Under the pieces are notes generated by a model. It searched no databases, was not told the DNA's origin, and saw only the letters and a list, made by a program, of their open reading frames with translations. Shown here piece by piece: positions 14,065 to 29,830 of a stretch of 39,963 nt of DNA. The stretch comes from an uncultured Alphaproteobacteria bacterium (GTDB lineage: Bacteria > Pseudomonadota > Alphaproteobacteria > GCA-002720895), in assembly GCA_964405695.1 (NCBI GenBank), contig CAYOOR010000112.1, positions 1-39,963 of the forward strand, read 5' to 3'. The position numbers and the translations under genes are program-made. Position 1 is the stretch's first letter; each line of letters begins with the position of its first letter.

Positions 14065-15228
14065 TTAAAGAAAGCTTTTCTTGGCAGTTGGTAGATCACA
14101 ATATGTTAATATTTTTGAAATAGATTTGCCAGAATCGCCATTTCCATAAAGTGTATTTTTTTTATATTTACCATGTTTTATTTGGCGTTCAATAGCTTTT
14201 TCTATCTCAACTGAATTATAATCACAATCAATAACATTTTTACCTCTATCTCTTCCAGTTTGTCTAGTTCCTATATTTACAACTGGAACACCTAAATATG
14301 AAGATTCTCTGATACCAACACTAGAATTACCAATTAAACATAATGATTTCTTTATTAATGCAAGGAAATCTTCTGGAGGCATATTTTTTAAAAATTTTAT
14401 TTTTAAATTATTATTATTTTCTCTAAAACTTCTTATTGCTTTACTTGCTTCATCAACGCCTGCATCAACATTTGGCCAAAACCAAAAAACTGGTATATTT
14501 ATTTTTTTTATCGCATTTAAAGTTACTCTTATTTGTTTTGCTGTATTTTTCCATTCATATGTTACAGGATGTTGCATAACAACTAAAAAATCACTAGATA
14601 TATCAATATTTTTTCCAACACCCTTATTAATAAAATTTTTATTAACATCCTTCTTCGATTTTATTATTTCTTGAACTAAATCAATAGATGGACATCCAGA
14701 AATAAAAACTTTTTTTGGATCTTCGCCTAATTTTAATAAACGCTTAGCAGCAATCTTATTTGATGCAAAATGTAAATCTGATAATTTTGTTACAGCATGT
14801 CTTACTTTTTCATCAATGGATCCTGTTATTTCTCCTCCTTGAATGTGGCCAACGGGAATATTTGTATAAGATGCACTTATGGCCGTTGCAATTGTTTCAT
14901 ATCTATCAGCAACAGTTAAAACAATATCAGGATTAATTCTATCAAATAAAGATGAAAGCTCGATAATACTTAAACCTGTTGATTTGGCACTTGTTAGCAA
15001 ATTACCGCCTTCAACCAACATATGAACTTTGTAATTAACTTTAAATCCATCTTTATTAATAACATCAATTAAATTTCCATATCTATCTAATAAAGAGGAA
15101 GCGGTTAAAATTAATATTAATTCTAATTTTTTATTTTTTTTAATTTCTTTTAAAACACTCTTTACTCTTGCATAAGATGGTCTCGCAGATATAACTATAC
15201 AAATTTTTCGTCTTGTTTTTTTTTTCAT
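14065..15228 (-). CDS. neuC: UDP-N-acetylglucosamine 2-epimerase (hydrolysing), NeuC-like, copy 2
   Basis: 387 aa. Motif region: ADRYETIATAISASYTNIPVGHIQGGEITGSIDEKVRHAVTKLSDLHF. Confidence 0.8.
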   Translation of the reverse strand: MKKKTRRKICIVISARPSYARVKSVLKEIKKNKKLELILILTASSLLDRYGNLIDVINKDGFKVNYKVHMLVEGGNLLTSAKSTGLSIIELSSLFDRINPDIVLTVADRYETIATAISASYTNIPVGHIQGGEITGSIDEKVRHAVTKLSDLHFASNKIAAKRLLKLGEDPKKVFISGCPSIDLVQEIIKSKKDVNKNFINKGVGKNIDISSDFLVVMQHPVTYEWKNTAKQIRVTLNAIKKINIPVFWFWPNVDAGVDEASKAIRSFRENNNNLKIKFLKNMPPEDFLALIKKSLCLIGNSSVGIRESSYLGVPVVNIGTRQTGRDRGKNVIDCDYNSVEIEKAIERQIKHGKYKKNTLYGNGDSGKSISKILTYCDLPTAKKSFL

Positions 15229-15255
15229 TTTAATAAAAATTCCTCAATAAACTAT

Positions 15256-16691
15256 TTAATCATTATATTTAATTGTTTTATTTATTTCTTTATATATACG
15301 ATCTTTTGTTTTTCCATCAAAAAAGCCATAAACATCGTATATTAATTCTTTTGGGCAAATTTGTTTTGGTAACTTTCCTTTAATACCATCATTCATTGCT
15401 TTTATAAGTTTGTCGGTAGATTTTGCAATATAAAAAGCTTTATTAAAATATTTTTTAAAATTAACATGCTCTTTAAAATACTTATTTTTTGCTTCAGCAA
15501 AAATAGGTACGATAACATTTTTATTCATTAATTTTGATTCAATTAAACTTGTGGAATTAATACCAACAATAACTGCTGATTCCTTTATCAATTCCTCTGA
15601 ACTTTTATCTATAGATATATGTAAATTTGGAATTTTTTTTGCATCTAGTCCTCCTCTTTTTATTGCAGTATAAATTCTTTCACTCCAATGTTGCATAAAT
15701 TTTGGTTTAATCCAAACTTCAATATCTGGGTTTTCATAAGCAAATTTTGCCATTGTATAATGAACTAAATCAAAATATTTATAAAATCCTTCATTGGGAT
15801 TATCACAAAAAAAATAACGATTATAATTTATTCCTGAAACTATTAAACCAGTACAGTGAGTAAATGAAAATAATGTTATTTGCTTTTTTTGTATTTTCGA
15901 AATGTATTTATTTCTATAATATTGATCAGTTCTTAATGCGCCAGATACAACAATTTTCTCCTTTGAAGTTATGTTTGAACTTAAAAAAAGTTTTTTGGCA
16001 TTTCCCCCATGAACAATTAGTTTTGTTCCTCTAAATTTATAATCTAAACCTATATAACGTTTCTTTGTTACTTCTGATGTATCAGGATCATGCAGACATT
16101 CTTTATGTAATGCAATAAAAGGTAATTTTATTTTAGAAGATGCTATTGACCAATCTTGATCATGTGGATAAAAAAAAGCACAAGTAATTAACGCATCAAT
16201 TTTTTGATTTTTAATCAATTTTTTTAAAAAAATTTCTAAAAAACTTTGTAATTTTTTTCTTAATTTTAGAATTAATTTTATCTCATTCTCTTTTAATTTT
16301 CTTTCTTTAAGAACTTTTTCACTAGAAGCAAAAGAAACTTTATATCCAACTCCTTTATTATAATTTTCCCAATTAATTTTTGTAACTGGCGCTATCCATA
16401 ACATATTAATAAGTGGTTGAATATTTGGATTAAAATCTAATAGTTGAATATTTTTGTGTTTTGATAATTCATTTAAATCATTTTTGTAACGGTCACTATG
16501 TAGAACTAGAATTCTAATAGTTTTTTTTTTTTCATATTATTTATAATTTTTAATTGTCTGCCAAACCAATAAACTAAAAAAGGTAAAAATATTCTTTGCC
16601 TAACAAATATTCTTAAAAAATTTATTAATTTTTTTTTTAATTGTGATTTATTTTTTGTTTGTAAGAATTTATAAATAAATTTAAAACTCAT
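15256..16691 (-). pseudogene. Uncharacterised GT-B-like surface-carbohydrate biosynthesis gene, split by a frameshift at an A12 tract
   Basis: The ATG at 16691 overlaps the hisH-like stop (TAATG). That frame runs MSFKF...IINNMKKKK and then stops at 16508-16506. The long frame (382-aa ORF 15256-16404) is open upstream as far as 16536, reading EKKKTIRILVLHSDRYKNDL... A tract of A13 or A10 would join the two frames. Confidence 0.5.
16521..16532 (-). repeat. Homopolymer A12 on the coding strand (T12 on +) at the frameshift point
   Basis: Counted directly: tttttttttttt at 16521-16532. Confidence 0.9.
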
Positions 16692-17278
16692 TAGCTTAAC
16701 ACAAATTTTTTTAAAAATTTTACTCCAGCAATACTACTTTTTTCCGGATGAAATTGACTCGCTATAATATTTTCTTTTCTAAATGCTCCTATATATGCTT
16801 CATTATTAAAATAATAATATGATAAATTAGTAATATTTAAATTTTTTTTTAAACCGTAATTATTCACATAATAATATGAGTTATTTAAATCTTTTTTTTT
16901 ATTAAATATAGTTTGATACCAACCTAAGTGTGGCCTTCTTTCTTTTCCTTTTTTTAATTTTATAATTTTTCCTTTAATCAATGATAACCCTCTAACATTC
17001 TTAGATTCTTCACTTTGATCAAATAAAACTTGAAAACCAGCACAGATTCCAAAAATAAGTTTTTTTTTATCATTTCTTTCTTTAATAGTTTTTATAATGT
17101 CTTTATCAAAAGAATTCATAAATCCACTAAATGATGCAGCACCTGGAATTACAAGTAAATCACAAGTAATTATTTTTTTTTTATCATTTGTCAATTCAAC
17201 ATTATATTTTTGCTCTTCAAAAAAAGTAAAAATTGATTTAAAGTTACCAACCTGTGATTTTAATATTACAATTTTCAT
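16691..17278 (-). CDS. HisH-like glutamine amidotransferase subunit (glycan-cluster paralog)
   Basis: 195 aa. Motifs: LVIPGAASF, FGICAGFQVLF, FHPEKS. Confidence 0.85.
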   Translation of the reverse strand: MKIVILKSQVGNFKSIFTFFEEQKYNVELTNDKKKIITCDLLVIPGAASFSGFMNSFDKDIIKTIKERNDKKKLIFGICAGFQVLFDQSEESKNVRGLSLIKGKIIKLKKGKERRPHLGWYQTIFNKKKDLNNSYYYVNNYGLKKNLNITNLSYYYFNNEAYIGAFRKENIIASQFHPEKSSIAGVKFLKKFVLS

Positions 17279-18108
17279 CTTGTTGATATTCTTGGAAATT
17301 TCTTTAATATTTTTTTTGGGTTAAATTTTGTTGATATATTCATGTTATTTTCTATATTTTCTATAGTTCTAAAATCTAAATAATTTTGTTTTCCTTTATT
17401 TTGTTTAAGAAATTGATAATGAAGTGATGAAGCAATAACAATTCCACTAATATTTTCAGATAAATTTATAATATTTTTTAAATCTTTTTCTGAACTAACT
17501 CCTCCTGAATATAAAAATGTTTGATTTTTTCTTTTAGATAGAATTTTAATTAAATCTAAATCAATACCATTACACCTACCATCATGTTCTATTGAATTGA
17601 TCAAAATTTCACCATCAAAAATTGTTTGTAAATAATCTAACCATTGTTTTAAGTTTTCATTAGCTAGATTTCTAGAAGATTCAGTAAAACATCTATATTC
17701 ATCATCTAAAATTTTTGTATAAACAGAAATAATTATATTTGCAGAACCAATCTTATTTATTAAATCTTTTAAGATATTTTTGTTTTTAAATATTGCAGAA
17801 TTTATAATAATTCTATCAGCACCTTGGTTAAGAGCAGTAGTAGAACTTTTTATATCTTTTAAACCACCTCCGTATGCTAAAGGAATTCTTAAATTTTTAG
17901 CAGTATCGTCTATTAATTTAAATGCTGATGGCGTACCAAATAAACTCGATACACAATCAATAACAATTATTTCATCAAAATTTTTTTCACTATAATTTTT
18001 AATAAATTTACTTGCAGGACCTAAAATTCTCAAACCTTCATGGTTTATACCTTTAACTAAATTATCATTTTTAACTTCTAGCTTTGGGATTATTCTTATA
18101 TTTCGCAT
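17275..18108 (-). CDS. HisF-like cyclase subunit (glycan-cluster paralog)
   Basis: 277 aa. RIIPKLEVKNDNLVKG parallels the HisF motif RIIPCLDV..G.VVKG. It is coupled to its neighbours by ATGA and TAATG overlaps. Confidence 0.85.
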   Translation of the reverse strand: MRNIRIIPKLEVKNDNLVKGINHEGLRILGPASKFIKNYSEKNFDEIIVIDCVSSLFGTPSAFKLIDDTAKNLRIPLAYGGGLKDIKSSTTALNQGADRIIINSAIFKNKNILKDLINKIGSANIIISVYTKILDDEYRCFTESSRNLANENLKQWLDYLQTIFDGEILINSIEHDGRCNGIDLDLIKILSKRKNQTFLYSGGVSSEKDLKNIINLSENISGIVIASSLHYQFLKQNKGKQNYLDFRTIENIENNMNISTKFNPKKILKKFPRISTR

Positions 18109-19295
18109 TAATTTAAATTTTCTTTAACTTTGTTAATCCATTTATTTTTATTATTTTTATACCAAATATTTTTAGGTCTATTAGTGTCTATAATTTTCCA
18201 ATAATTTTTTTCTGTTAAACCAATATAATCTAAAAAAAATTTAAAATTTTTTTTGGGAAACTCTTCATCATATTTTTTTATTAATTGGATAGCTTCATCT
18301 CTAGTTATATATCCATCCCTTATATCTCTACATGCATCATTCATAGTTCTTCCTTGTCCAAATTTTATCAACATTGTAAAGTAATATTGCCCATCTATTT
18401 TATCATCTAAACTAGAAAACTTTGTGTAAGTTCCTTCACTTCTTCCTAATGGATTGCTATTAAAATTACTAAATTTTTTAGAATAAAAATAATTTTGTTG
18501 AGGTGACCAATTCTCAAAATTACTGAAAAAAAATGTTTTAATTTTATTCTTTTTTACATCTTTTAAATTCATTGGCATATACAAAAATAAATCTTTAATA
18601 TTTATTTTTTCTTTCTTTAATTCATTTAAAGTTAATCCTGCTAACTTTATATCTTTCTTTTTTCCATTAAATGCATAATGTTCTGGAGGCATTTCAAAGT
18701 TATCAAATGAATCTAAATTCGAAGGATGAACCTCTAAAGGAGATTCCCCGTACATTACCAATTTTACATTGTACATTTTTGCAAATTTTGGTCCTATATT
18801 TTTTTGACCAATAACAAATGGTTGAAATGGATTACACAAATTCTTAAAGGATAAACGAGTTAAAATTTTTTTTACTTTTGGATTTGGATTTACAACTATA
18901 TTGTCTAAACCTGAGTTTATCCATTCTTGATGATTTATTTTACCTATATCAGTATAGACTATTGGTGCCCATGTGACAGTTAAAGGATTCATTGAATATT
19001 TATATTTTAATTTATGCGCAACAGCAAAACTATCTTTACCACCACTTCCTGGAACTATAACATCATAGCCTCCATCTTTTTTTTTATATTTTTTTAATAT
19101 ACTTATTAATTTTTTTTCTCTTTTTTTCCAATTAATTTTTCTTTTATATTCTGCATATTTACAAGCAAAACAAACTCCGTCATTATCAAATCTTGTAGAT
19201 TCATGATAGGATTTTTTTTTAAGGAATTCAGGAGTACTAACTGGTCTAGTATTTGCCATAACACATTTTTTACAAATAATAATTTTTTTTTCCAT
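18108..19295 (-). CDS. N-acetyl sugar amidotransferase (WbpG/PseA family), copy 1
   Basis: 395 aa. It has a CKKCVM...CFAC zinc-ribbon-like N-terminus and the PP-loop VIVPGSGGKDS. Confidence 0.8.
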   Translation of the reverse strand: MEKKIIICKKCVMANTRPVSTPEFLKKKSYHESTRFDNDGVCFACKYAEYKRKINWKKREKKLISILKKYKKKDGGYDVIVPGSGGKDSFAVAHKLKYKYSMNPLTVTWAPIVYTDIGKINHQEWINSGLDNIVVNPNPKVKKILTRLSFKNLCNPFQPFVIGQKNIGPKFAKMYNVKLVMYGESPLEVHPSNLDSFDNFEMPPEHYAFNGKKKDIKLAGLTLNELKKEKINIKDLFLYMPMNLKDVKKNKIKTFFFSNFENWSPQQNYFYSKKFSNFNSNPLGRSEGTYTKFSSLDDKIDGQYYFTMLIKFGQGRTMNDACRDIRDGYITRDEAIQLIKKYDEEFPKKNFKFFLDYIGLTEKNYWKIIDTNRPKNIWYKNNKNKWINKVKENLN

Positions 19296-19299
19296 TTAA

Positions 19300-20283
19300 T
19301 TAATCAAAATTATTTACTTCATCCCAATTGTAAATATATCTTTTAACTTTGTTTTTATATAAAACACTGGCAAATCGACCTCTGTAATAATCTCTATTTA
19401 AAATTTCAATATTAGTTAATTTTCTATTTTTTTTTCCTAGAATCTTATTTTTAAAATTTGTCGATAATTTAGACAAAATTATTTTTTGATCACTTCTAGA
19501 TAGATTTGAAAATTTGCTTATTTCATTTAATTGTTGCGGATTCATAGATACAATTCCATCACGAGTTTCTTCTGACTCTAATATTGTAAAATGTTTTTCA
19601 ATTATTTTAGCACCTAAATAAATAGCATATTTAATTGCTATTAAATTTTTATCTAAAGCTGCAGTATGGTCTGAGTAACCAAAACTTTTAGTAAATTTTT
19701 TTAAAAAATTTAATCTATTTAAATTCACATCCTTAATTGGAGTTGGATAAATGCTAACACAATGTAAAAAAGAGAATTTCTTTTTTTTTAATATTGAAGC
19801 TGCTTTTTTTATTTCATTATCATATGTTCCACCAGTAGATACAATAATATTGTTAAAATTATTTACTAAATCTCTTAATAATTGAAAAGATGCGCAATCT
19901 ATACTTGCAACTTTAATAAGTTTAAAATTTAATTCTTTTAATAATCTTATTTGTGATCTTGTAAAACAAGTAATTAAAGGAACAACATTATAACTTTCAC
20001 ATTTTTTTTTAAAATTTTCAATTTGTTTAATATTTAATTCTAGTTTTTTTAATCTTTTATATTCATCTTTATAAGGTCTTTTAATAGAATGAACTTTTTT
20101 ATTTATTTTTATACCAGATTCAAATTTTGGCCTAAAAGTTAGTTCATTTGCAAAAATATTTTGAATTTTTAAATGTGTTGCTCCATGTTCAACTGCTTTA
20201 TCAATCATTTCAGATAAAATAGCTGAATTTCCGTTATGATTCTGACAAAATTCAGCAATAATTGAAATTTTATTTTTTTTCAT
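19300..20283 (-). CDS. NeuB-family nonulosonic acid synthase, divergent copy
   Basis: Motifs: IIAEFCQNHNGN...HGATHLKIQ and GYSDHT. ATG at 20283 is preferred; the ORF track starts it at GTG 20298. Confidence 0.7.
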   Translation of the reverse strand: MKKNKISIIAEFCQNHNGNSAILSEMIDKAVEHGATHLKIQNIFANELTFRPKFESGIKINKKVHSIKRPYKDEYKRLKKLELNIKQIENFKKKCESYNVVPLITCFTRSQIRLLKELNFKLIKVASIDCASFQLLRDLVNNFNNIIVSTGGTYDNEIKKAASILKKKKFSFLHCVSIYPTPIKDVNLNRLNFLKKFTKSFGYSDHTAALDKNLIAIKYAIYLGAKIIEKHFTILESEETRDGIVSMNPQQLNEISKFSNLSRSDQKIILSKLSTNFKNKILGKKNRKLTNIEILNRDYYRGRFASVLYKNKVKRYIYNWDEVNNFD

Positions 20284-20986
20284 TAAGAATAAACTCACAA
20301 TATTTAAAATCTATTTCATTATCAATATCAACTGAATTTTTAGCATTCATGAAATAGGGAATTACTTTTTTACCATATACCAAATTATTCTTATTTTTAA
20401 AAATTACATTTCTTTTTGTTAAATAAATTGAACCATTAGTTTTATAAATATTTGATTTAACATCTTGTCTTCTAAAAAATTTATTATTTAACAAATAAGG
20501 TTTTAAATAATTTTTTTTTAATATTCTTAAAAAAACTGGATGAGATTTAATTACCTTTTTTACAGATACAACTGAATCACAAATATTATTTTTCATAATA
20601 TTAATTACTTTTTTTATATCAAGTGCATTTCGAAGGGGTGAAGTTGGTTGTAAAATTATAATCCAATCAATATGAACTTTGTCTTTTTTTTCAATAAAAT
20701 CAATACAGTGTTTTATAACAGGTAATGTAGGAGTAGTGTCTTTAGATATAATTTTTGGTCTTATAAAAGGAACTTCTGCTCCTAGTTTTTTTGATAATTT
20801 TGCTATTTTTTTACTATCTGTGCTTACAACTATTTTATAAAATAGTTTTTTTAATTTTAGCGCTTCATTTATAGAATAAAAAATCAATGGCTTTTTATTT
20901 AAAAGTTTAATATTTTTGTCTTTAATTGTTTTTGAGCTACCTCGTGCAGGTATTATTGCCAGAATTTTTAAATCTTTTTTTATCAT
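20270..20986 (-). CDS. neuA: Acylneuraminate cytidylyltransferase (CMP-nonulosonic acid synthetase, NeuA/LegF-like)
   Basis: 238 aa. Motif: LAIIPARGSSKTIKDKNIKLLNKKPLI. Confidence 0.8.
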   Translation of the reverse strand: MIKKDLKILAIIPARGSSKTIKDKNIKLLNKKPLIFYSINEALKLKKLFYKIVVSTDSKKIAKLSKKLGAEVPFIRPKIISKDTTPTLPVIKHCIDFIEKKDKVHIDWIIILQPTSPLRNALDIKKVINIMKNNICDSVVSVKKVIKSHPVFLRILKKNYLKPYLLNNKFFRRQDVKSNIYKTNGSIYLTKRNVIFKNKNNLVYGKKVIPYFMNAKNSVDIDNEIDFKYCEFILNEKK

Positions 20987-21023
20987 TTTTTATTAAAAAT
21001 TTAATTAAGAATAAATATTTGAA

Positions 21024-23625: not shown

Positions 23626-23645
23626 TTTGATTTTTTAAACTTTAA

Positions 23646-24800
23646 TTATTTAATTAAATTTTTTAATTTATATTTTGTACCAACTTTTTTCCAAATATGA
23701 TTTGATCTCCAACTGTTTATAACATCCCAAAACAGATCTTCTTTAATATTTAAATATTCTAAAAAAAATTTAAAATTTTTTCCGGGAAATTCATCATCAT
23801 ATTTCCTTACTAATGAAACACCTTCATCCCTTGTAATTTTTCCATCTCTTATTTCATGAGCACTATCTGAAGTAGCTCTACCAATACCAAATTTTATAAA
23901 CCCTAGATAATAATGAAAACCATCAAGTTTATCGTCTAAACTTGCGTATCTAGAATAAGTTGATTCACTTCTGACTGGATTTAATTTAAAATTTGTATTT
24001 TTAGCACAATAATAATAATTTTCTTGGGGATCCCAAAAATGATAATAGCCAAAAAAATGTTGTTCAATTCCAATTTTTTTAATACTTTTAATATCAGGCG
24101 CATCATATATTTCTAAATCGCTTGAATTAATTTTATATTTTTTCCAAAATTTTAAAGGATAACTGGAAAAATAATGCTTATTTGCATAATTAACTTTTTT
24201 CATAGGTTGATATGCGTTAGTCATATCACCGCCATATTCAACTTCTCCATTCTCCCCATAAAAAATCAATGGTATTTCGTGTTGCACAGCTACTCGTAAT
24301 GGAAAATTTGCTTGACCATATACAAAACCTTGAAAAGGTTCGCCAAGAACAATAAAGCCTAATTTAGCTAAACGTCTATTCACTATTCCATCAGGTTTTC
24401 CTAAAATATTATCAAGTCCTGCGTCAACTAAACCAGTATAATTTTTTAAACCAATATCTGTCCAGGCATTAGGTGACCAAGTAGCAGTAAGTGGCTTCAT
24501 TCCATACTTTGCTTTAAGTATATGAGCAACATATCCGCTGTCTTTCCCGCCGCTTGATGGAACTACGCAATCATGTTTATTTGTTTTAGATCTATGTTTA
24601 TCTAATAATCTTAATAATTCTTCATCTCTTTTAAACCAATTGACTTTTCTTTTATATTTAGCAAAATTACATGCACTGCAAACATTATTCTTGTCAAAAG
24701 TTATTCTTGGTCTTTGATTACTCATTGTACAAAGTTTACAAAATTGAACCTTTTTCGGTAAATTATATAATTTAATTACATTCTTTTTTATAATTTTCAT
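23646..24800 (-). CDS. N-acetyl sugar amidotransferase (WbpG/PseA family), copy 2
   Basis: 384 aa. Motifs: CKLCTMSNQRP...CSAC and the PP-loop CVVPSSGGKDS. It is clearly paralogous to 18108-19295. Confidence 0.85.
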   Translation of the reverse strand: MKIIKKNVIKLYNLPKKVQFCKLCTMSNQRPRITFDKNNVCSACNFAKYKRKVNWFKRDEELLRLLDKHRSKTNKHDCVVPSSGGKDSGYVAHILKAKYGMKPLTATWSPNAWTDIGLKNYTGLVDAGLDNILGKPDGIVNRRLAKLGFIVLGEPFQGFVYGQANFPLRVAVQHEIPLIFYGENGEVEYGGDMTNAYQPMKKVNYANKHYFSSYPLKFWKKYKINSSDLEIYDAPDIKSIKKIGIEQHFFGYYHFWDPQENYYYCAKNTNFKLNPVRSESTYSRYASLDDKLDGFHYYLGFIKFGIGRATSDSAHEIRDGKITRDEGVSLVRKYDDEFPGKNFKFFLEYLNIKEDLFWDVINSWRSNHIWKKVGTKYKLKNLIK

Positions 24801-25879
24801 TTTTTATTTCTAAAATTTTCTTTAATTAATTCATCAAAATTATAATTTCTAGAAGACTTTTTTCCTAATAAATTCCAAAAATACATTGGGCTAATCCCTC
24901 TACCTGATCTTTTAGTACTTATATTTTTTTTGGTAAATTTCTTTCCTTTTTTTATCTTTTGTAAAGCAATAATACTTTTTCTTGAAACATAAGAATTAGA
25001 TTTTTCTTCTTTAGTTATTTCTCTTTTCAATTTACCTAAAGAGATTTCTGTAAGCCTTATAGAATTAACCATTTCAGAAAATTCTCTTTTATTAAAGGAT
25101 GATGAATGATCGGGGCCTGAATCATTTTTATTTAACGTTAAATGCTTTTCAATAATATTAGCTCCTAAAGCTACAGCTATAGTAGAACTTATTATATTTG
25201 TACTATGATCAGAAAAACCAACTTCAAGATTAAAAATTTTTTTTAAATTCTTAATGTTATTTAAATTAACATTAGATGTTGATACTGGATATTCAGAATT
25301 ACAATGCATTAAAATAATTTTATTTTTTATTTTTTTTTTGTTTTTTTTATATGCATTAATAAAATTTAAATTATTTATTTTTTTTTTCAGAAATGAATGT
25401 GTTAAAACATCTAAAGCTAAATTTATGTCTTTTATAGTTGACATTCCAGTTGATAAAAAAACTTTCTTACAATTTAGTCCAATATAATTTAATAATGGTG
25501 CATTTGTGATCTCTCCAGACGGAATTTTAATTATTCTTGTTTTAAGTTTTTTAATTAAAAACTTAGCACTATCTAAGTCAAATGGAGATGAAATAAACTT
25601 AATACCTAATTTATCAGCATATTTTTTTAATTTAATGAAAGAACTTTGAGATAATTGGTTTTTTTTTAACAATTCAAATTGATTTTTAAAAAATGAATTT
25701 TTTCTTTGATAATTCGCTAATTTTGAATTTTTAACCACTATATTACTTGTAATATAAGTTTGAAACTTAACTGCATCCGCGCCAGCACTGTAAGCAATTT
25801 TTATTAAATTTTTAGCTTTTTTTTCAGAACCATTATGGTTAATACCTATTTCCGCAATAATAAAAGTTTTTTTAATCAT
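24797..25879 (-). CDS. neuB: N-acetylneuraminate/legionaminate synthase (NeuB/LegI-like)
   Basis: 360 aa. Motifs: FIIAEIGINHNGSEKKAKNLIKIAYSAGADAVKFQTY and GFSDHS. Confidence 0.85.
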   Translation of the reverse strand: MIKKTFIIAEIGINHNGSEKKAKNLIKIAYSAGADAVKFQTYITSNIVVKNSKLANYQRKNSFFKNQFELLKKNQLSQSSFIKLKKYADKLGIKFISSPFDLDSAKFLIKKLKTRIIKIPSGEITNAPLLNYIGLNCKKVFLSTGMSTIKDINLALDVLTHSFLKKKINNLNFINAYKKNKKKIKNKIILMHCNSEYPVSTSNVNLNNIKNLKKIFNLEVGFSDHSTNIISSTIAVALGANIIEKHLTLNKNDSGPDHSSSFNKREFSEMVNSIRLTEISLGKLKREITKEEKSNSYVSRKSIIALQKIKKGKKFTKKNISTKRSGRGISPMYFWNLLGKKSSRNYNFDELIKENFRNKK

Positions 25880-25885
25880 TTTTAA

Positions 25886-27046
25886 TTAATTTTTAGAAAA
25901 AAATTTTTTAAGAAGTACTTTATCTAAATTTATTTTTTTAATTTGTTTTATTATTTTCCCTGATGTATTTCCATCGCCATAAAATTTTTTAAATTTATTT
26001 ATTTTTGTTTTAAATTGATTTGATATTGCTACTTGAATTGATTTGATTATTTCTTTTTTATCTGTTTTACAATTAATAATAGATTTGGACATTAATCTAC
26101 CTGACTGCCTAGTTCCGATATTTATTGTTGGTTTTTTGAAATATGGTGCATCTATAATACCACTAGATGAATTCCCTATAACAGCTGATGAATAATTCAT
26201 AATATTTAAATATAAATCACCTCCTAAATTTTCGGTAAAAAAAACTTTATTTAAATTTTTTTTTTTAAATTCTTTTATTTTTTTAATAATATAATTGTAT
26301 TTTGAATCAAAGCCCGGGCATGTAAAAACAAAATTATAATTTTTAAAGTATTTTAATGATTTAATTACTTCATTTATTAATTTTTTAGTTTCATTCTGAT
26401 CTATCGTATTAGGATGAACACAAATTAAAAAATATTCTAAATCTGATTTAAAATTTAAAATTTTTTTTATATTTTTGTAGTTTATTTTTTTCATTAATTT
26501 TATTCTTTCTGCAGAAAGTGATCCGACATTAAATACTTTTTTTGGATCTTCACCCATTTGAATAACATTTCTTTTATATTGATCTGATGCTACAAAATGA
26601 AAATGCGACATTTTTGTTATTGAATGTCTTATACTATTATCAATTGACCCTTTTGTTATTTCACCGCCATGTAAATGAATAATAGGAATATTTTGAAACA
26701 TAGCGCTTATAGCTACTGAAAGTATTTCATATCTATCACCAAATAAAATAATAGCATCAGGTTTAATTTTACAAACCTGACTATTTATTTTTTCTGATAA
26801 AATATTAAAAATATTAGACATTGGTAAATTCTTTATATTTTTTGATATTTTTATTTCTTTAACAAAATTATATTTTTCTTTATAAATATCTTTTATAGAA
26901 TATCCGAATTCTTTTAAATGATGATTTCCGGTTACTATCAATGTTAATGATAAACTTTTTTCTTTTTTTATCTGATCAATTAATATTTTTTGTAAATAAA
27001 AATCAGATCTTGATACTGACACAAATAAAATTTTTTTTATTCTCAC
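25886..27046 (-). CDS. neuC: UDP-/GDP-N-acetylhexosamine 2-epimerase (hydrolysing), NeuC/LegG-like, copy 1
   Basis: 386 aa with a GTG start. Motif region: GDRYEILSVAISAMFQNIPIIHLHGGEITKGSIDNSIRHSITKMSHFHF. Confidence 0.85.
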   Translation of the reverse strand: MRIKKILFVSVSRSDFYLQKILIDQIKKEKSLSLTLIVTGNHHLKEFGYSIKDIYKEKYNFVKEIKISKNIKNLPMSNIFNILSEKINSQVCKIKPDAIILFGDRYEILSVAISAMFQNIPIIHLHGGEITKGSIDNSIRHSITKMSHFHFVASDQYKRNVIQMGEDPKKVFNVGSLSAERIKLMKKINYKNIKKILNFKSDLEYFLICVHPNTIDQNETKKLINEVIKSLKYFKNYNFVFTCPGFDSKYNYIIKKIKEFKKKNLNKVFFTENLGGDLYLNIMNYSSAVIGNSSSGIIDAPYFKKPTINIGTRQSGRLMSKSIINCKTDKKEIIKSIQVAISNQFKTKINKFKKFYGDGNTSGKIIKQIKKINLDKVLLKKFFSKN

Positions 27047-27049
27047 TTT

Positions 27050-27641
27050 TTATATTTTATTTTTAGATATTGTTTGTCCTGCTTTTATAAAAATATTAGA
27101 ACCTATTTTGATATTAGGAGTAATTATTGTACCGGCTCCTATTAATGTATTATTTCCAATACTTACGTTTCCACATATAACTGCTCCTGGAGCAATATGT
27201 ACATTTTCTCCAATTTTACAATCATGATCTATTAAAGCTCCTGTATTTATTATCGAATTTTTTCCTATACTACATCCTGGTTGAATTATAACACCAGCCA
27301 TTATTTGAGATCCTTCATCAAAATAAACATCGTCAGAAATAATAGAAGTTGGATGTTTTAATTCTAAAAAATTAAAATTTTTTTTTTTAAATAATTCATA
27401 AACTTTTCTCCTTTTACTTTTATCTTTACTAAAACCAATGCCATTTATTAAAAAAATTTTATTTGAAGAATAATTTAAAATAGATTCATCATTTCCAAGA
27501 TATTTACAATTCTTAATTTTTTTTTTTTTTATTTTTATCAATGAAACCAATTATTCTTAACCCTTTCTTTTTTAATACATCAAACAAAACTTTTGAATGC
27601 CCTCCTCCTCCTATTAAAATAATTGATTTATTCTTTATCAT
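27050..27641 (-). pseudogene. NeuD/PglD/LegH-like hexapeptide-repeat acetyltransferase, frameshifted at an A14 tract
   Basis: The ATG at 27641 overlaps the upstream TGA as ATGA. It gives MIKNKSIILIGGGGHSKVLFDVLKKKGLRIIGFIDKNKKKKN*. The left-handed beta-helix part (GKNSIINTGALIDHDCKIGENVHIAPGAVICGNVSIG) lies in another frame (ORF 27050-27550). A tract of A13 would fuse the two. Confidence 0.7.
27517..27530 (-). repeat. Homopolymer A14 on the coding strand at the frameshift point
   Basis: Counted directly: 14 consecutive t at 27517-27530. Confidence 0.9.
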
Positions 27642-28819
27642 TTCTTACTAAATAATATCGGACTACTAGGTAAGCAAATTAAATTTTTATTAATAATATC
27701 AATATTTTCTAATTTCATTGACGGATATTTTTTATACATTGGCAACTTATGTATTGGAAACCAAATAGGTCTACAATGAACATATCGTTTTTCTAAATCT
27801 GATAATATTTTATTTCTTATTTTTAAAGAATTTTTTTTTAAAAAAATAATATTTAACCAATTATTTCTTTTAGTATTTAATGGTTCTTTAAAAAAATTTA
27901 TTTCCTGAAACTTATGAAAATAATTTTGATAAAATTTAGTTAATAATTTTTTTCTTTTTAAAAAATTTTTCAATTTTTTTATTTGAGCACAACCAATAGC
28001 AGCATTAATATTGGGCATTCTATAATTGTATCCAACTTGATCATGAAAAAAATCAGTTCTTTTTATTTTTTTTGCAACATTTGATAAATGTTTTGCTTTT
28101 TCAAAAATTTTTTTATTATTTGTTAATATCGCTCCACCAGCACCTGTTGTAATAATTTTGTTTCCATTAAAACTTAATGCTGAAATTGTTCCAAAATTGC
28201 CAACATGTTTTTTTTTATAATAGGACCCAACCCCCTCGGCAGCATCTTCAACTAAATCAATTTTAAAAAGTTTTGCTAATTTCAATAATTCATTCATATT
28301 AGCAGGAGTACCGTAAACATGCGTAACGATTAAAGCTTTAATATAATTATTAGTATTTAAATTTTTTAAACCTTTTGAAGTTTGTCGAGTATTTTTATTT
28401 AAATATTCAATTAATTTTATTGCATCAACACCTAAAGTATTCAATTCAGAATCAACAAAATGCGGAGTTGCATTACAATACTTTATAGCATTAACAGTAG
28501 CTACAAAAGTTAAGGTTGGGACAAGTACTTCATCATTTTTTTTAACACCAATTGATTTTAAAGCTATATGTAAAGCCGAAGTGCCACTATTTAATAATAA
28601 AATATTTTTACATTTTATAATTTTTTTTAATTCATTCTCAAATTTTGAAATAAACTCTCCAGTTGTAGACACCCATCCAGTTTTCAAACAATTTCTTGAA
28701 AATTTAATTTCATCATTACCTATTTCTGGCTCATGTAATGCAAAATATTTGAAATTTCTTTTTTTTGCTACCAATTTAACAGCATTATGAATGTTTTCAG
28801 ATATTTTTAGATAATTCAT
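27638..28819 (-). CDS. DegT/DnrJ/EryC1-family PLP aminotransferase (LegC-like)
   Basis: 393 aa. Motifs: HEPEIGNDEIKF...TGWVSTTGEFISKFE and SFNGNKIITTGAGGAI (the Lys motif). Confidence 0.85.
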   Translation of the reverse strand: MNYLKISENIHNAVKLVAKKRNFKYFALHEPEIGNDEIKFSRNCLKTGWVSTTGEFISKFENELKKIIKCKNILLLNSGTSALHIALKSIGVKKNDEVLVPTLTFVATVNAIKYCNATPHFVDSELNTLGVDAIKLIEYLNKNTRQTSKGLKNLNTNNYIKALIVTHVYGTPANMNELLKLAKLFKIDLVEDAAEGVGSYYKKKHVGNFGTISALSFNGNKIITTGAGGAILTNNKKIFEKAKHLSNVAKKIKRTDFFHDQVGYNYRMPNINAAIGCAQIKKLKNFLKRKKLLTKFYQNYFHKFQEINFFKEPLNTKRNNWLNIIFLKKNSLKIRNKILSDLEKRYVHCRPIWFPIHKLPMYKKYPSMKLENIDIINKNLICLPSSPILFSKK

Positions 28820-28852
28820 AATTAAAATATTTAAATTTCAATAGAAAAGTAT

Positions 28853-29830
28853 TTATATATTATATTGATTTTTGTAATAGCTAAGATTTTCAGGATTATT
28901 AAACCAATTTAAAGTTTTTTCTAGTCCTTCATTAATGTTTACTTTAATTTTCCAATTAGTTTTTTTTATTAATTTTCTATTATCACATACTAAATTAGCG
29001 ACTTCACTATCAATAGGTCTTTTTCTTTTTTTATCAATTTTAATTTTTATATTTAAATTTAATATTTTTTCTAAAGACATAACCATTTCTTTCACAGATA
29101 AACTTTTTTTTGAACCAACATTTACAATTTCTCCAATAATTTTATTAGATTTAAATATTTCTAAAAATGCTGAACAAACATCTGACACATATATTAAATC
29201 TCTTTTTGTATTAATATTTCCAAGATAAATTTCTCTTTTTCTTTGTAAAATCTGAGAAATAATCGTAGGTATAATAGCTCTAGCAGATTGTCTTGGTCCA
29301 TACGTGTTAAAAGGTCTTGCAATTTTAACTGGCAAATTAAAAGATCTAAAATAACTTAATGATAATTGATCCGCAGCAACTTTTGATGCAGCGTATGGTG
29401 ATTGTGCGTTGATGGGATGAATTTCATTAATAGGAGTATATTGTGCAGAACCATAAATTTCGCTTGTGGATGTTATAATTACTTGATCAACTTCTTTGTG
29501 TTTCGAAGCCTCAAGAATATTATAAGTTCCTTCAACATTTGTTTTAATATAAGCTAAAGGAGAAATATATGAATATGGTATTCCAATCAAAGCTGCTAAA
29601 TGAATAATATTTGAAGATTTTTTTACAACATTTAATACTGAATCATAATCACGTATGTCCCCTAAAATCATTTCAAAATCATTTTTATATTTACTATTTT
29701 CTAACCAACCCCAATTATTAAAACTGTTATAACGATCAAAAGCTATTACTTTAAAACCTTTTTCAACAAAAAATTCAACTAAGTGTGATCCAATAAAACC
29801 AGCTGCACCAGTTATTAATACTTTTTTCAT
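28853..29830 (-). CDS. NAD-dependent sugar-nucleotide 4,6-dehydratase/epimerase (LegB-like SDR)
   Basis: 325 aa. Motifs: ITGAAGFIGSHL, YNSFNNWGWLE, YAASKVAADQL. Confidence 0.8.
   Translation of the reverse strand: MKKVLITGAAGFIGSHLVEFFVEKGFKVIAFDRYNSFNNWGWLENSKYKNDFEMILGDIRDYDSVLNVVKKSSNIIHLAALIGIPYSYISPLAYIKTNVEGTYNILEASKHKEVDQVIITSTSEIYGSAQYTPINEIHPINAQSPYAASKVAADQLSLSYFRSFNLPVKIARPFNTYGPRQSARAIIPTIISQILQRKREIYLGNINTKRDLIYVSDVCSAFLEIFKSNKIIGEIVNVGSKKSLSVKEMVMSLEKILNLNIKIKIDKKRKRPIDSEVANLVCDNRKLIKKTNWKIKVNINEGLEKTLNWFNNPENLSYYKNQYNI

What the first reader, a model, noticed from the sequence alone, without database searches (positions are those of the whole stretch)
14065..29830. Two nonulosonic-acid modules and two acetamidino-forming amidotransferases share a single CMP-transferase
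Module 1 runs from 29830 down to 24797: a LegB-like dehydratase, a LegC-like aminotransferase, a NeuD-like acetyltransferase, a NeuC-like hydrolysing epimerase and a NeuB-like synthase. It is followed by a WbpG/PseA-type amidotransferase, a CBS-nucleotidyltransferase (PtmE-like, which implies a GDP-linked legionaminic-type route) and a NeuA-like CMP-transferase.

A second, divergent NeuB (19300-20283) and a second NeuC (14065-15228) flank a second amidotransferase that has its own HisH/HisF ammonia-channel pair. In characterised systems, WbpG/PseA-type enzymes (some with HisH/HisF partners) make acetamidino (acetimidoyl) sugars. The locus is therefore predicted to decorate the cell with amidino-modified nine-carbon acidic sugars, possibly two different ones. 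Only one cytidylyltransferase is present for two synthases.
Basis: partly seen in the sequence, partly recalled or inferred. Interest (0 to 1): 0.6.

Follow-up and report, generated by a model that had tools for sequence, protein, structure and literature searches.

The report
Two sialic-acid-like sugar pathways, one activator
An uncultured, very AT-rich marine bacterium carries one long operon predicted to make two different nine-carbon acidic surface sugars, each with its own amidine-forming enzyme and candidate transferase but only one activating enzyme, built from known enzyme families except for a widespread, unstudied type of synthase.

Summary
The gene calls are right. Module 1 (29830-24797, plus 22076-21024) is a GDP-type legionaminic-acid set: LegB, LegC, NeuD, LegG-type NeuC1, NeuB1 and a PtmE-like CBS-nucleotidyltransferase.

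Module 2 is not a second copy of it. NeuC2 resembles the UDP-GlcNAc-hydrolysing GNE/NeuC enzymes. NeuB2 belongs to a large, uncharacterised NeuB clade without the SAF domain, but keeps the catalytic residues.

Synteny assigns the only NeuA-type cytidylyltransferase (20986-20270) to module 2. Its stop overlaps the NeuB2 start, and it travels with NeuC2-type genes and a BFO_1060-like transferase in other contigs. So the Leg module is the one without its own activator.

Both amidotransferases are true NASAT/WbuX enzymes.

A KdsB-type cytidylyltransferase lies 4 kb upstream of the finding, probably for Kdo.

In this copy NeuD and GT478 are frameshifted in poly-A tracts and g512 has two TAA stops. 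A 99.8 % identical contig has NeuD and g512 intact.

The "two synthases, one CMP-transferase" layout recurs in 10 of 17 comparable loci. Verdict: a new variant of a known kind, of moderate interest. Sugar identities are inferred, not shown.

The parts
28853..29830 (-). LegB-like NAD-dependent 4,6-dehydratase (module 1)
   Evidence: TIGR04180 433 bits, just under the cutoff of 475; Pfam GDP_Man_Dehyd/Epimerase. dN/dS 0.11 against the sister lineage.
27638..28819 (-). LegC-family aminotransferase (module 1)
   Evidence: TIGR04181 460 bits, above the cutoff of 420; the PseC model gives only 232 bits.
27050..27640 (-). NeuD/LegH-type N-acetyltransferase, frameshifted in this copy at an A14 tract (27517-27530)
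   Evidence: TIGR03570 165 bits for the 166-aa ORF. The L001 195-aa orthologue aligns in two frames. The 99.8 % identical contig L094 has one A fewer and an intact 196-aa gene.
25886..27046 (-). NeuC1, a LegG-type hydrolysing 2-epimerase (module 1)
   Evidence: TIGR03568 396 bits. Best solved relative is the GDP/UDP-diNAcBac hydrolysing 2-epimerase 5xvs at 239 bits; human GNE gives 151 bits.
24797..25879 (-). NeuB1, a full-length Neu/Leg-type nonulosonate synthase (LegI-like by context)
   Evidence: TIGR03569 392.6 bits over the whole 329-position model (cutoff 399.65). The PseI model gives 251 bits, below its cutoff of 340.
23646..24800 (-). NASAT1 (WbuX/WbpG/PseA-type N-acetyl-sugar amidotransferase)
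   Evidence: TIGR03573 324 bits (cutoff 203). 310 bits to the L. pneumophila NASAT structure 8wex. SGGKDS PP-loop at residue 83 and two CxxC motifs. dN/dS 0.08.
22078..23625 (-). g512: unannotated GT-B-fold protein, candidate CMP-NulO transferase of module 1. Interrupted here by two in-frame TAA codons (23092-23094 and 22597-22599).
   Evidence: Collinear in one frame and 71 % identical to the intact 512-aa gene of L001. L094 reads AAA and GAA at the two stops. Contigs from three metagenome runs read AAA at the first stop. The family has 817 representatives, and 6 of 69 members hit PF07388 polysialyltransferase. K395-P-H397-P398 is nearly invariant. The AF2 model has pLDDT 88.9. Foldseek gives weak GT-B matches, including a polysialyltransferase-CDP complex, 5wcn.
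21024..22076 (-). PtmE/LgaF-like CBS-nucleotidyltransferase (GDP-sugar entry step of the Leg route)
   Evidence: Pfam CBS + NTP_transferase. Best NCBIfam matches are sugar-1-phosphate guanylyl/nucleotidyl-transferases, none above cutoff.
20270..20986 (-). NeuA-type CMP-nonulosonate synthetase, the only one in the operon. Its stop overlaps the NeuB2 start by 14 nt.
   Evidence: Pfam CTP_transf_3. The PseF model gives 149 bits, below its cutoff of 206. Best solved relatives are CMP-Neu5Ac synthetases 6ifd and 1eyr. Orthologues at 45-69 % identity sit next to NeuB2-type or NeuC2-type genes in L085, L098, L099 and L100.
19300..20283 (-). NeuB2: NeuB-family synthase of the SAF-less clade (module 2)
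   Evidence: Pfam NeuB 169 bits. TIGR03569 gives 163 bits and PseI 132 bits, both far below cutoff. Catalytic and metal residues of N. meningitidis NeuB are conserved, with E134->D and N184->S. The AF2 model (pLDDT 93.7) shows a TIM barrel plus a helical C-terminus, not a SAF domain. More than 2000 relatives were found.
18108..19295 (-). NASAT2 (WbuX-type amidotransferase)
   Evidence: TIGR03573 302 bits. 333 bits to 8wex. SGGKDS at residue 84 and two CxxC motifs. dN/dS 0.05. 42 % identical to NASAT1.
17275..18108 (-). HisF-like (WbuZ/AglZ-type) subunit
   Evidence: TIGR03572 WbuZ gives 164 bits and NF038364 AglZ/HisF2 gives 141 bits, both below their cutoffs. Pfam His_biosynth 149 bits.
16691..17278 (-). 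HisH-like glutaminase subunit (WbuY-type)
   Evidence: TIGR01855 145 bits, above the cutoff of 105; Pfam GATase.
15256..16691 (-). GT478: distant BFO_1060-family protein, candidate NulO transferase of module 2. Frameshifted at an A12 tract (16521-16532), leaving a 382-aa ORF at 15256-16404.
   Evidence: NF046086 gives 50-55 bits (E 2e-13 to 7e-15) and TIGR04396 gives 33-40 bits, both below cutoff. The L001 478-aa orthologue aligns in two frames. The frameshift is shared with L094. BFO_1060 relatives are needed for Pse/Leg transfer in T. forsythia (PMC5420450). Homologues sit beside NeuC2-type genes in L085 and L100.
14065..15228 (-). NeuC2: GNE/NeuC-type hydrolysing UDP-GlcNAc 2-epimerase (module 2)
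   Evidence: TIGR03568 380 bits (cutoff 236); the WecB model gives 93 bits, below 210. Best solved relative is the human GNE epimerase domain 4zht at 241 bits; LegG gives 183 bits. dN/dS 0.05.
34035..34757 (-). KdsB-family cytidylyltransferase outside the finding (probably CMP-Kdo synthetase)
   Evidence: NF003952 242 bits (cutoff 193) and TIGR00466 145.5 bits, just under its 155.2 cutoff; PseF model only 20 bits. KdsB and the adjacent 405-aa ORF are absent between the u409 and MarR homologues in L084.
31638..32213 (-). RfaH/UpxY-like NusG paralogue at the head of the ~31-kb co-directional gene string
   Evidence: TIGR01955 111 bits and NF033644 65 bits, both below cutoff. The same MarR-RfaH-ABC head is found in L004 and L084.
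29836..31542 (-). ABC exporter (MsbA/PglK-like), first gene after the regulators
   Evidence: Many ABC permease/ATPase models match at E of about 1e-50 to 1e-70, none above cutoff.

Best explanation
One long operon of an uncultured, roughly 21 % GC marine bacterium joins two different nonulosonic-acid (NulO) modules.

Module 1 is a GDP-type legionaminic-acid route. The predicted steps are:
1. The PtmE-like enzyme makes the GDP-hexosamine.
2. LegB dehydrates it.
3. LegC aminates it.
4. NeuD acetylates it.
5. LegG-type NeuC1 hydrolyses and epimerises it.
6. NeuB1 condenses it with PEP to give Leg5Ac7Ac.

Module 2 is a neuraminic-type route. GNE-like NeuC2 is predicted to make ManNAc, or a close analogue, from UDP-GlcNAc. 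The SAF-less synthase NeuB2 would condense it with PEP. The overlapping, probably translationally coupled NeuA would make the CMP-sugar.

The Leg module has no activator of its own, so the same NeuA most likely activates both acids.

Each module carries its own ATP-dependent NASAT amidotransferase. NASAT2 is fed ammonia by the HisH/HisF pair. These enzymes are predicted to convert an N-acetyl group into an acetamidino group. Each module also carries its own candidate CMP-NulO transferase, g512 and GT478.

Shown here: gene content, family membership, conserved residues, synteny and purifying selection. Inferred: all substrates and products, the sharing of NeuA, and the stage at which amidination occurs.
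For: - Family scores and motifs for every gene.
- NeuC1 versus NeuC2 discrimination. NeuC1 scores 239 bits against LegG and 151 against GNE. NeuC2 scores 183 against LegG and 241 against GNE.
- NeuB2 keeps the residues equivalent to E25, K53, Q55, T110, K129, S132, S154, S213, H215, E234, H236 and D247 of N. meningitidis NeuB. Its model has a NeuB TIM-barrel fold.
- NeuB2 homologues have a NeuA-type gene within 10 kb in 65 of 80 genome loci (56 of 77 loci by ORF clustering).
- The window's NeuA orthologues travel with module-2 parts:
  - L085: GT478-like, NeuA (60 %), NeuB2 (67 %), NeuC2 (80 %).
  - L098: NeuA (69 %), NeuB2.
  - L099: NeuC2-type (55 %), NeuA (49 %), SAF-type NeuB.
  - L100: GT478-like, NeuC2-type (60 %), NeuA (45 %).

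- The whole architecture is intact in a sister lineage about 80 % identical at protein level, seen in several independent assemblies. dN/dS is 0.05-0.24 for every gene.
- Both NASATs score 310 and 333 bits against the L. pneumophila LPS NASAT structure (PMC10607449).
- GT478 is distantly related to the T. forsythia Pse/Leg transferase family (PMC5420450).
- The g512 family has a near-invariant HP motif, a GT-B fold and weak similarity to polysialyltransferases.
Against: - No member of the NeuB2 clade has been characterised. It scores far below the curated NeuB and PseI models.
- Most NeuB2 homologues sit with a CBS-UDP-sugar dehydrogenase and not with NeuC. The usual substrate of the clade may therefore not be ManNAc.
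- The gene order LegB-LegC-NeuD-NeuC-NeuB...PtmE-NeuA also matches, from my own knowledge and not checked here, the canonical lgaA-G order of Acinetobacter. On that reading NeuA could equally be called the Leg module's activator.
- A KdsB-type cytidylyltransferase is nearby.
- WbuXYZ in E. coli O145 is thought to amidinate a non-NulO sugar while sitting beside Neu5Ac genes (my own knowledge). Adjacency therefore does not fix NASAT2's substrate.
- A 5-acetamidino neuraminic acid has not, to my knowledge, been described.
- In this particular copy NeuD, g512 and GT478 are disrupted.
Confidence: 0.55

Rival explanations
1. The cytidylyltransferase is the Leg module's own LegF/LgaG. Module 2 then lacks an activator, and its product is either activated by the upstream KdsB-type enzyme or is not a separate end product.
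For: The gene order LegB-LegC-NeuD-NeuC1-NeuB1-...-PtmE-NeuA mirrors known Leg clusters (my own knowledge of lgaA-G). JGI labels several relatives of this NeuA as CMP-N,N'-diacetyllegionaminic acid synthase. A KdsB-family gene lies at 34035-34757, and together with its neighbour u405 it is absent at the equivalent place in L084.
Against: The NeuA stop overlaps the NeuB2 start. The closest NeuA relatives (45-69 %) sit in NeuC2/NeuB2 or NeuC2/SAF-NeuB clusters that lack LegB and LegC. KdsB passes a CMP-Kdo synthetase model and scores 20 bits on the PseF model.
Confidence: 0.2
2. NeuB2 does not make a classical nine-carbon amino-NulO. Its clade makes a different CMP-activated ulosonic acid, and NASAT2/HisHF amidinate some other N-acetyl sugar of the glycan, as WbuXYZ is thought to do in E. 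coli O145.
For: - 64 of 77 NeuB2-family loci carry a CBS-UDP-ManNAc-dehydrogenase-like gene.
- 33 carry an unknown 334-aa gene with a faint PseG match, 25 a 2-hydroxyacid dehydrogenase and 14 a HAD phosphatase.
- NeuC is present in only about 7 of 80 loci.
- NeuB2 scores far below the curated NeuB and PseI cutoffs.
- The residue equivalent to N184 is replaced, and the SAF domain with its substrate-contacting Arg is absent (PMC8208679).
Against: In the window lineage the dehydrogenase and 334-aa partners are missing. A GNE-like NeuC2 takes their place, as it does in L085, L020 and L078. In L099 and L100 the same NeuC2/NeuA set works with an ordinary SAF-type NeuB. That argues for a ManNAc-type substrate here.
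Confidence: 0.2
3. The locus in this particular genome is decaying or phase-switched off. Three disrupted genes mean that neither sugar is displayed by this strain.
For: NeuD and GT478 are frameshifted in A14 and A12 tracts, and g512 carries two TAA codons. 13 of the 21 substitutions relative to the 99.8 % identical L094 fall within g512.
Against: L094 has NeuD and g512 intact. Contigs from three metagenome runs read Lys at the first stop. Homopolymer length errors are common in assemblies of such AT-rich DNA. The remaining sequence shows no further decay, and dN/dS is low. The 382-aa GT478 remainder keeps the conserved C-terminal domain.
Confidence: 0.25

Closest known systems
Campylobacter jejuni/coli flagellar glycosylation locus (Leg pathway LegB/C/H/G/I/F plus PtmE, and the amidotransferases PtmG and PseA)
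   Same: It has a GDP-linked Leg route with a CBS-nucleotidyltransferase, several NeuB paralogues in one locus, and WbuX-family amidotransferases without a HisH/HisF partner that yield acetamidino NulOs. Homopolymer-tract phase variation affects glycosylation genes there (my own knowledge; PMC7371886 summarises the three NeuB paralogues).
   Different: Campylobacter has a dedicated CMP-synthetase for each pathway, and its second and third pathways are Pse and Neu with SAF-type synthases. Here there is one NeuA, a SAF-less NeuB2, a HisH/HisF-coupled second NASAT, and no flagellar context.
Legionella pneumophila LPS O-antigen cluster (poly-Leg5Am7Ac) with its NASAT (PDB 8wex)
   Same: Both window NASATs score 310-333 bits against LpNASAT. 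They share the SGGKDS PP-loop and the tetracysteine motif (PMC10607449). HisH/HisF paralogues are reported in that LPS cluster (my own knowledge; PMC3694923 mentions hisF in connection with legionaminic acid).
   Different: Legionella has a single NulO pathway and a single NASAT.
E. coli O145 WbuX/WbuY/WbuZ and Methanococcus AglX/AglY/AglZ triads
   Same: An adjacent NASAT, HisH-like and HisF-like gene trio. The models matched here are TIGR03573, TIGR03572 and NF038364.
   Different: Those triads are thought to amidinate hexosamine derivatives (FucNAc, ManNAc3NAcA), not NulOs (my own knowledge). The window's HisF-like protein scores below both equivalog cutoffs.
Aliivibrio salmonicida LFI1238 Neu and Leg clusters
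   Same: One organism makes both a Neu-type acid and an acetamidino Leg (8eLeg5Am7Ac). The NeuA of its Leg cluster is a conserved pseudogene, yet LegAmAc is detected. This implies that one activator can serve both pathways (PMC7371886; the sharing is my inference).
   Different: There are two separate clusters, SAF-type synthases and one amidination. Here everything lies in one operon and the Leg module has no NeuA remnant at all.
Tannerella forsythia Pse/Leg-derivative transferases (Tanf_01245, TFUB4_00887, BFO_1060)
   Same: GT478 matches the conserved C-terminal, putatively CMP-binding part of this family and sits inside a NulO cluster (PMC5420450).
   Different: The score is only 50-55 bits against a cutoff of 200. 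No HP motif is present in GT478. The N-terminal domain is unrelated.

Membership tests
NASAT / WbuX (TIGR03573) N-acetyl-sugar amidotransferase | Whole-protein score above the curated cutoff | tested here: met
   WbuX1 scores 324 bits and WbuX2 302 bits against a cutoff of 203. They score 310 and 333 bits against the 8wex structure.
NASAT / WbuX (TIGR03573) N-acetyl-sugar amidotransferase | PP-loop SGGXDS and tetracysteine CXXC...[GN]XCXXC motif (PMC10607449) | tested here: met
   SGGKDS is at residue 83 in WbuX1 and 84 in WbuX2. WbuX1 has CKLC...NVCSAC and WbuX2 has CKKC...GVCFAC.
NASAT / WbuX (TIGR03573) N-acetyl-sugar amidotransferase | Converts a sugar N-acetyl group into an acetamidino group | not testable with these tools
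   This needs an enzyme assay or glycan mass spectrometry.
WbuXYZ / AglXYZ amidination triad | Adjacent HisH-like glutaminase and HisF-like partner of the dedicated WbuZ/AglZ type | tested here: inconclusive
   The three genes are adjacent (18108-19295, 17275-18108, 16691-17278). HisH passes TIGR01855 (145 bits, cutoff 105). The HisF-like protein scores 164 bits on WbuZ (cutoff 300) and 141 on AglZ/HisF2 (cutoff 310).
GDP-type legionaminic acid pathway (LegB/C/H/G/I/F plus PtmE) | LegB, LegC, NeuD-type acetyltransferase, LegG-type epimerase, Neu/Leg-type synthase and CBS-nucleotidyltransferase all present | tested here: met
   LegC and NeuD score above their cutoffs. LegB (433 vs 475) and NeuB1 (392.6 vs 399.65) fall just below theirs. 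NeuC1's best solved relative is the diNAcBac hydrolysing epimerase. The CBS + NTP_transferase architecture is present. NeuD is frameshifted in this copy but intact in L094.
GDP-type legionaminic acid pathway (LegB/C/H/G/I/F plus PtmE) | A dedicated CMP-legionaminate synthetase (LegF) | tested here: inconclusive
   One NeuA-type gene follows PtmE. By synteny it belongs to the NeuB2/NeuC2 module. No second NeuA-type gene exists in the 40-kb window.
Sialic-acid (NeuC/NeuB/NeuA) pathway | Hydrolysing UDP-GlcNAc 2-epimerase | tested here: met
   NeuC2 scores 380 bits on TIGR03568 (cutoff 236). The non-hydrolysing WecB model gives 93 bits (cutoff 210). Its best solved relative is the GNE epimerase domain.
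Sialic-acid (NeuC/NeuB/NeuA) pathway | N-acetylneuraminate synthase equivalog (TIGR03569) with a C-terminal SAF domain | tested here: not met
   NeuB2 scores 163 bits against a cutoff of 399.65, and only profile positions 2-249 are matched. The AF2 model has a helical C-terminus that does not align to the SAF domain of 1xuu. Catalytic residues are nevertheless conserved.
Pseudaminic acid pathway | PseB, PseC, PseI and PseF equivalogs | tested here: not met
   All Pse models score well below their cutoffs: PseB 61, PseC 232, PseI 251 (NeuB1) and 132 (NeuB2), PseF 149.
BFO_1060-family NulO transferase (NF046086) | Score above the cutoff, plus the DXD, D/E-D/E-G and HP motifs (PMC5420450) | tested here: not met
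   GT478 scores 50-55 bits against a cutoff of 200. It has a DDG motif but no HP motif. It is a distant relative only.
Bacterial polysialyltransferase-like GT-B (PF07388 / GT38) | Pfam match, GT-B fold and HP motif | tested here: inconclusive
   The window protein has no Pfam hit. 6 of 69 family members hit PF07388 (best E 8e-6). The KPHP motif is nearly invariant. Foldseek against 5wcn gives E 1.2e-3 with TM-scores of only 0.27-0.34.
CMP-Kdo synthetase (KdsB) | Score above the curated cutoff | tested here: met
   The 34035-34757 protein scores 242 bits on NF003952 (cutoff 193). NF009905 gives 248 bits, just under its cutoff of 255.

The most novel reading that the evidence does not exclude
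The SAF-less NeuB2 clade makes a so far undescribed CMP-activated ulosonic acid. The clade is found from SAR11, SAR116 and Prochlorococcus to Thaumarchaeota and Patescibacteria, and usually sits with a CBS-UDP-sugar dehydrogenase and a NeuA. In this operon it has been rewired to a GNE-like epimerase and a HisH/HisF-fed NASAT. The product would be a 5-acetamidino neuraminic-type acid. A single NeuA would activate both this sugar and a 6-deoxy-diamino legionaminic acid.
Probability: 0.2. Interest if true: 0.65.

Novelty: new variant of a known kind. Interest (0 to 1): 0.45.

Why it matters
Nonulosonic acids sit at the outermost tips of microbial surface glycans, where they may be seen by phages, grazers and immune systems.

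If the reading is right, abundant uncultured ocean bacteria combine a legionaminic route and a neuraminic-type route in one transcription unit. They would economise on the activating enzyme while diversifying through separate amidination and transfer steps.

The analysis also points to a very widespread NeuB clade with no known product. Its usual partner genes suggest an unexplored ulosonic-acid pathway in dominant marine lineages. That clade could be tested directly with a few recombinant enzymes.

Tried and rejected
- An exact-sequence look-up of NeuB2 from the GTG start found nothing. The ATG start at 20283 is the conserved one.
- One read-laying run over the NeuD poly-A tract gave only spurious low-complexity matches. 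The two frameshifts could therefore not be checked against reads.
- The word-index homologue search for g512 returned only 3 proteins. The exhaustive HMMER search was needed.
- A profile of the g512 family found no solved structure by sequence. It showed no relation to GT478 (probability 0.1). The two candidate transferases are therefore unrelated.
- A pseudaminic-acid reading was rejected because every Pse model scores below cutoff.
- Alternative genetic-code recoding was considered for the in-frame stops. It was rejected because only g512 is affected and a 99.8 % identical contig has sense codons there.
- Literature searches found no characterised member of the SAF-less clade. They found only the observation that SAF-less NeuBs occur in environmental bacteria (PMC8208679).
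- A search for direct evidence that one CMP-synthetase accepts both Neu and Leg substrates gave nothing explicit.

Full report
**1. What is in the sequence**

The window has about 19-26 % GC. Nearly every ORF of 100 aa or more lies on the minus strand with short or overlapping junctions. It therefore reads as one long co-directional gene string.

The string starts with a MarR-type regulator and an RfaH/UpxY-like NusG paralogue (32781-31638). An MsbA/PglK-like ABC exporter follows (31542-29836).

- LegB: TIGR04180 433 bits (cutoff 475).
- LegC: 460 bits (cutoff 420).
- NeuD: 165 bits (cutoff 161).
- NeuC1: TIGR03568 396 bits.
- NeuB1: TIGR03569 392.6 bits (cutoff 399.65), matched over the full model.
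- WbuX1: TIGR03573 324 bits (cutoff 203).
- A CBS + NTP_transferase protein.
- A CTP_transf_3 protein.
- NeuB2, WbuX2 (302 bits), a HisF-like protein, HisH and NeuC2 (380 bits).

All pseudaminic-acid models score well below cutoff. The Pse route is excluded.

**2.

(a) Two further genes lie inside the interval.
- g512 (22078-23625) lies between WbuX1 and the CBS-nucleotidyltransferase.
- GT478 (15256-16691) lies between HisH and NeuC2.

(b) Three genes are disrupted in this copy.
- The 195-aa NeuD and the 478-aa GT478 of a sister contig each align to the window in two frames. The breaks fall at an A14 tract and an A12 tract.
- g512 aligns in a single frame but has two in-frame TAA codons.
- A metagenome scaffold, L094, is 99.79 % identical to the window over 20.7 kb. 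It has A13 and an intact NeuD. It reads AAA and GAA in place of the two TAA codons. It shares the GT478 frameshift.
- 13 of the 21 substitutions between the window and L094 fall inside g512.
- Contigs from three other metagenome runs also read AAA at the first stop.
- The NeuD and g512 lesions are therefore specific to this copy, or are errors. The GT478 lesion is a lineage trait or a recurrent homopolymer miscall. I could not settle this with reads.

(c) A KdsB-family cytidylyltransferase lies at 34035-34757. It scores 242 bits on NF003952 (cutoff 193) and only 20 bits on the PseF model. It is most simply a CMP-Kdo synthetase. Still, "only one cytidylyltransferase" is strictly true only for NeuA-type enzymes.

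**3. The two modules are of different kinds**

NeuC1 and NeuC2 are 35 % identical to each other. NeuB1 and NeuB2 are 28 % identical. The two WbuX proteins are 42 % identical.

Against solved structures, the two epimerases separate cleanly:
- NeuC1 scores 239 bits on the GDP/UDP-N,N'-diacetylbacillosamine hydrolysing 2-epimerase (LegG type, 5xvs) and 151 bits on human GNE.
- NeuC2 scores 241 bits on GNE and 183 bits on LegG.

Module 1 has a dehydratase, an aminotransferase, an acetyltransferase and a PtmE-like enzyme. It is therefore a complete GDP-type legionaminic set, apart from a dedicated activator. Module 2 has none of the 6-deoxy-diamino tailoring enzymes. It looks like a NeuC/NeuB/NeuA neuraminic-type route.

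**4. NeuB2 belongs to a distinct, large clade**

NeuB2 matches only the TIM-barrel part of the curated synthase models. It scores 163 bits on TIGR03569 and 132 bits on PseI.

An AlphaFold model (pLDDT 93.7) shows the barrel followed by three helices and a small hairpin. Foldseek aligns about 270 columns to N. meningitidis NeuB, without its SAF domain.

The residue-level alignment to 1xuu shows the metal and catalytic residues conserved. These are the equivalents of E25, K53, Q55, T110, K129, S132, S154, S213, H215, E234, H236 and D247. Two differences stand out: E134 is Asp and N184 is Ser. NeuB2 is very probably an active PEP-condensing synthase, possibly with an altered sugar pocket.

More than 2000 relatives exist, mostly about 320 aa long with a conserved C-terminal NRDYYRGRFAS motif. 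Genomes carrying them include SAR11, SAR116, Prochlorococcus, Thaumarchaeota, Patescibacteria, Bacteroidota and others. The nearest is a MarineAlpha6 alphaproteobacterial MAG at 64 % identity.

The literature notes that SAF-less NeuBs are typical of environmental bacteria. It gives no function for them (PMC8208679).

**5. Neighbourhood statistics**

I looked at 77-80 genome loci holding a NeuB2 homologue.
- A NeuA-type gene lies within 10 kb in 65 of 80 loci, usually adjacent.
- A 567-aa CBS + UDP-ManNAc-dehydrogenase-like gene is present in 64 of 77.
- An unknown 334-aa gene with a faint PseG match is present in 33.
- A 2-hydroxyacid dehydrogenase is present in 25.
- A HAD phosphatase is present in 14.
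- NeuC is rare, at about 7 of 80.

The clade's product is thus clearly a CMP-activated ulosonic acid. Its usual precursor supply differs from the one in this window.

The window lineage lacks the dehydrogenase and the 334-aa partner and has NeuC2 instead. The same NeuB2 + NeuC2-type pairing is seen in L085, L020 and L078.

**6. Whose cytidylyltransferase is it?**

The NeuA stop overlaps the NeuB2 start by 14 nt. The contexts of its closest relatives are:
- L085: GT478-like, NeuA (60 %), NeuB2 (67 %), a 51-aa remnant of a GT478 gene, NeuC2 (80 %).
- L098: LegC-like, SAF-type NeuB, AP-endonuclease-fold protein, NeuA (69 %), NeuB2 (80 % over the 45 residues on the contig).
- L099: NeuC2-type (55 %), NeuA (49 %), SAF-type NeuB, capsule genes.
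- L100: GT478-like, NeuC2-type (60 %), NeuA (45 %), deacetylase, SAF-type NeuB. Homologues of the window's FkbM, u356, AsnB2 and GT4 genes follow.

NeuA, NeuC2 and GT478 therefore travel together as a neuraminic-type module. Its synthase may be SAF-type or NeuB2-type. The window's NeuA is that module's activator, and the Leg module is the one without its own.

Because the order ...PtmE-NeuA also mimics canonical Leg clusters, the gene sits exactly at the seam between the modules. A functional assignment to both is the simplest reading.

The layout is not unique. Of 17 genome loci with two NeuB-type genes within 10 kb of each other, 10 have one NeuA, 2 have two, and 5 have none detectable by tblastn.

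Aliivibrio salmonicida offers a partial precedent. The NeuA of its Leg cluster is a conserved pseudogene, yet LegAmAc is produced alongside Neu5Ac (PMC7371886). Sharing of the activator there is my inference.

**7. Amidotransferases**

Both WbuX proteins pass the NASAT model. Both carry the SGGKDS PP-loop and the tetracysteine motif. They score 310 and 333 bits against the Legionella pneumophila LPS NASAT structure 8wex (PMC10607449).

NASAT2 is followed by HisF-like and HisH genes. This is the WbuXYZ/AglXYZ arrangement, although the HisF-like protein scores below both equivalog cutoffs.

NASAT2 and NeuC2 are the most constrained genes of the operon, with dN/dS of about 0.05.

The chemistry of converting N-acetyl to acetamidino is inferred from family membership. 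The substrate and the stage (free, nucleotide-linked or CMP-linked sugar) are unknown.

**8. Candidate transferases**

GT478 is a distant relative of the BFO_1060 family (E of about 1e-14, below cutoff). Members of that family are required for transfer of Pse or Leg derivatives in Tannerella forsythia (PMC5420450).

g512 has no family assignment. The evidence on it is:
- Its family has 817 representatives.
- The family includes members that hit the polysialyltransferase Pfam model (6 of 69).
- It has a near-invariant K-P-H-P motif.
- It models as a GT-B-like two-Rossmann protein (pLDDT 88.9).
- Foldseek matches are weak and include a polysialyltransferase-CDP complex and TarL.

Each module thus appears to carry its own glycosyltransferase. 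This argues for two distinct end products rather than one.

**9. Conservation**

A sister lineage is about 80 % identical at protein level. It is seen in at least five independent assemblies from Tara and other marine metagenomes. It has exactly the same gene order with all genes intact.

dN/dS between the two lineages is 0.05-0.24 for all 17 genes tested. The combined architecture is maintained by selection.

**10. Verdict**

The interpretation needs three changes:
- The second module is neuraminic-type and uses a synthase from an uncharacterised clade.
- The lone NeuA belongs to that module.
- The sharing pattern is recurrent, not exceptional.

All component families are known. The combination, and the NeuB2 clade itself, are the new elements. 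I rate this a new variant of a known kind, with moderate interest.

Noticed in passing
L004-L083 (genome loci around NeuB2 homologues), e.g. L007:5843-12000 and L013:9293-13700: NeuB2-family genes sit in a strongly conserved cassette across SAR11, SAR116, Prochlorococcus, Thaumarchaeota and others. The cassette holds a NeuA-type cytidylyltransferase, a 2-hydroxyacid dehydrogenase, NeuB2, a 567-aa CBS + UDP-ManNAc-dehydrogenase-like protein and an unknown ~334-aa protein with a faint PseG match. A second variant has a HAD phosphatase and two methyltransferases. I found no characterised pathway that matches.
   Followed up: partly
window 22371-23311: 13 of the 21 substitutions between the window and the 99.8 % identical scaffold L094 fall inside the 1.5-kb g512 gene. 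Six of them lie within 21 nt (23077-23097), and two create TAA stops. This is a local hot-spot of variation, a recombination patch or an assembly artefact.
   Followed up: partly
window 27517-27530 and 16521-16532: Both frameshifts lie in the long poly-A runs (A14 and A12 on the coding strand) of surface-glycan genes. The NeuD tract differs by one base in L094. This could be slipped-strand phase variation or homopolymer miscalling. The window holds 36 homopolymer runs of 10 nt or more.
   Followed up: partly
L085:3084-3239: The 51-aa ORF between NeuB2 and NeuC2 in L085 matches the last 28 residues of GT478 at 64 % identity. It looks like the scar of a deletion that removed NASAT2, HisF, HisH and GT478 from a window-like arrangement. 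Another GT478-like gene sits upstream of NeuA in that contig.
   Followed up: partly
window 32817-34757: The KdsB-type cytidylyltransferase and the adjacent unannotated 405-aa ORF lie between homologues of u409 and MarR. Those two are directly adjacent in L084. The pair is therefore a variable insertion next to the operon head, not fixed core-genome context.
   Followed up: no
window 36117-39385: Upstream are a polysaccharide-deacetylase-family protein, a formyltransferase-like protein and a weak PMT/ArnT-like membrane protein. The trio is reminiscent of ArnD, the ArnA N-terminal domain and ArnT of lipid A aminoarabinose modification. The scores are weak.
   Followed up: no
window 428-14035: Downstream in the same gene string are three AsnB-type amidotransferases (14035-12263, 12263-10470 without a glutaminase domain, and 7489-5561). 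RmlB, RmlA, an FkbM methyltransferase, two GT4 glycosyltransferases and several unannotated ORFs follow. Together with the two NASATs, this makes five amidotransferase-type genes in one operon.
   Followed up: no
L083:200-11000 and L081:1-11000 (Pelagibacteraceae single-cell genomes): SAR11 loci place a Leg-like set (PtmE, LegB, SAF-type NeuB, LegC or NeuC) divergently next to a NeuA-NeuB2 cassette. Only one NeuA-type gene lies within 20 kb. L083 also has HisH/HisF paralogues beside it.
   Followed up: partly
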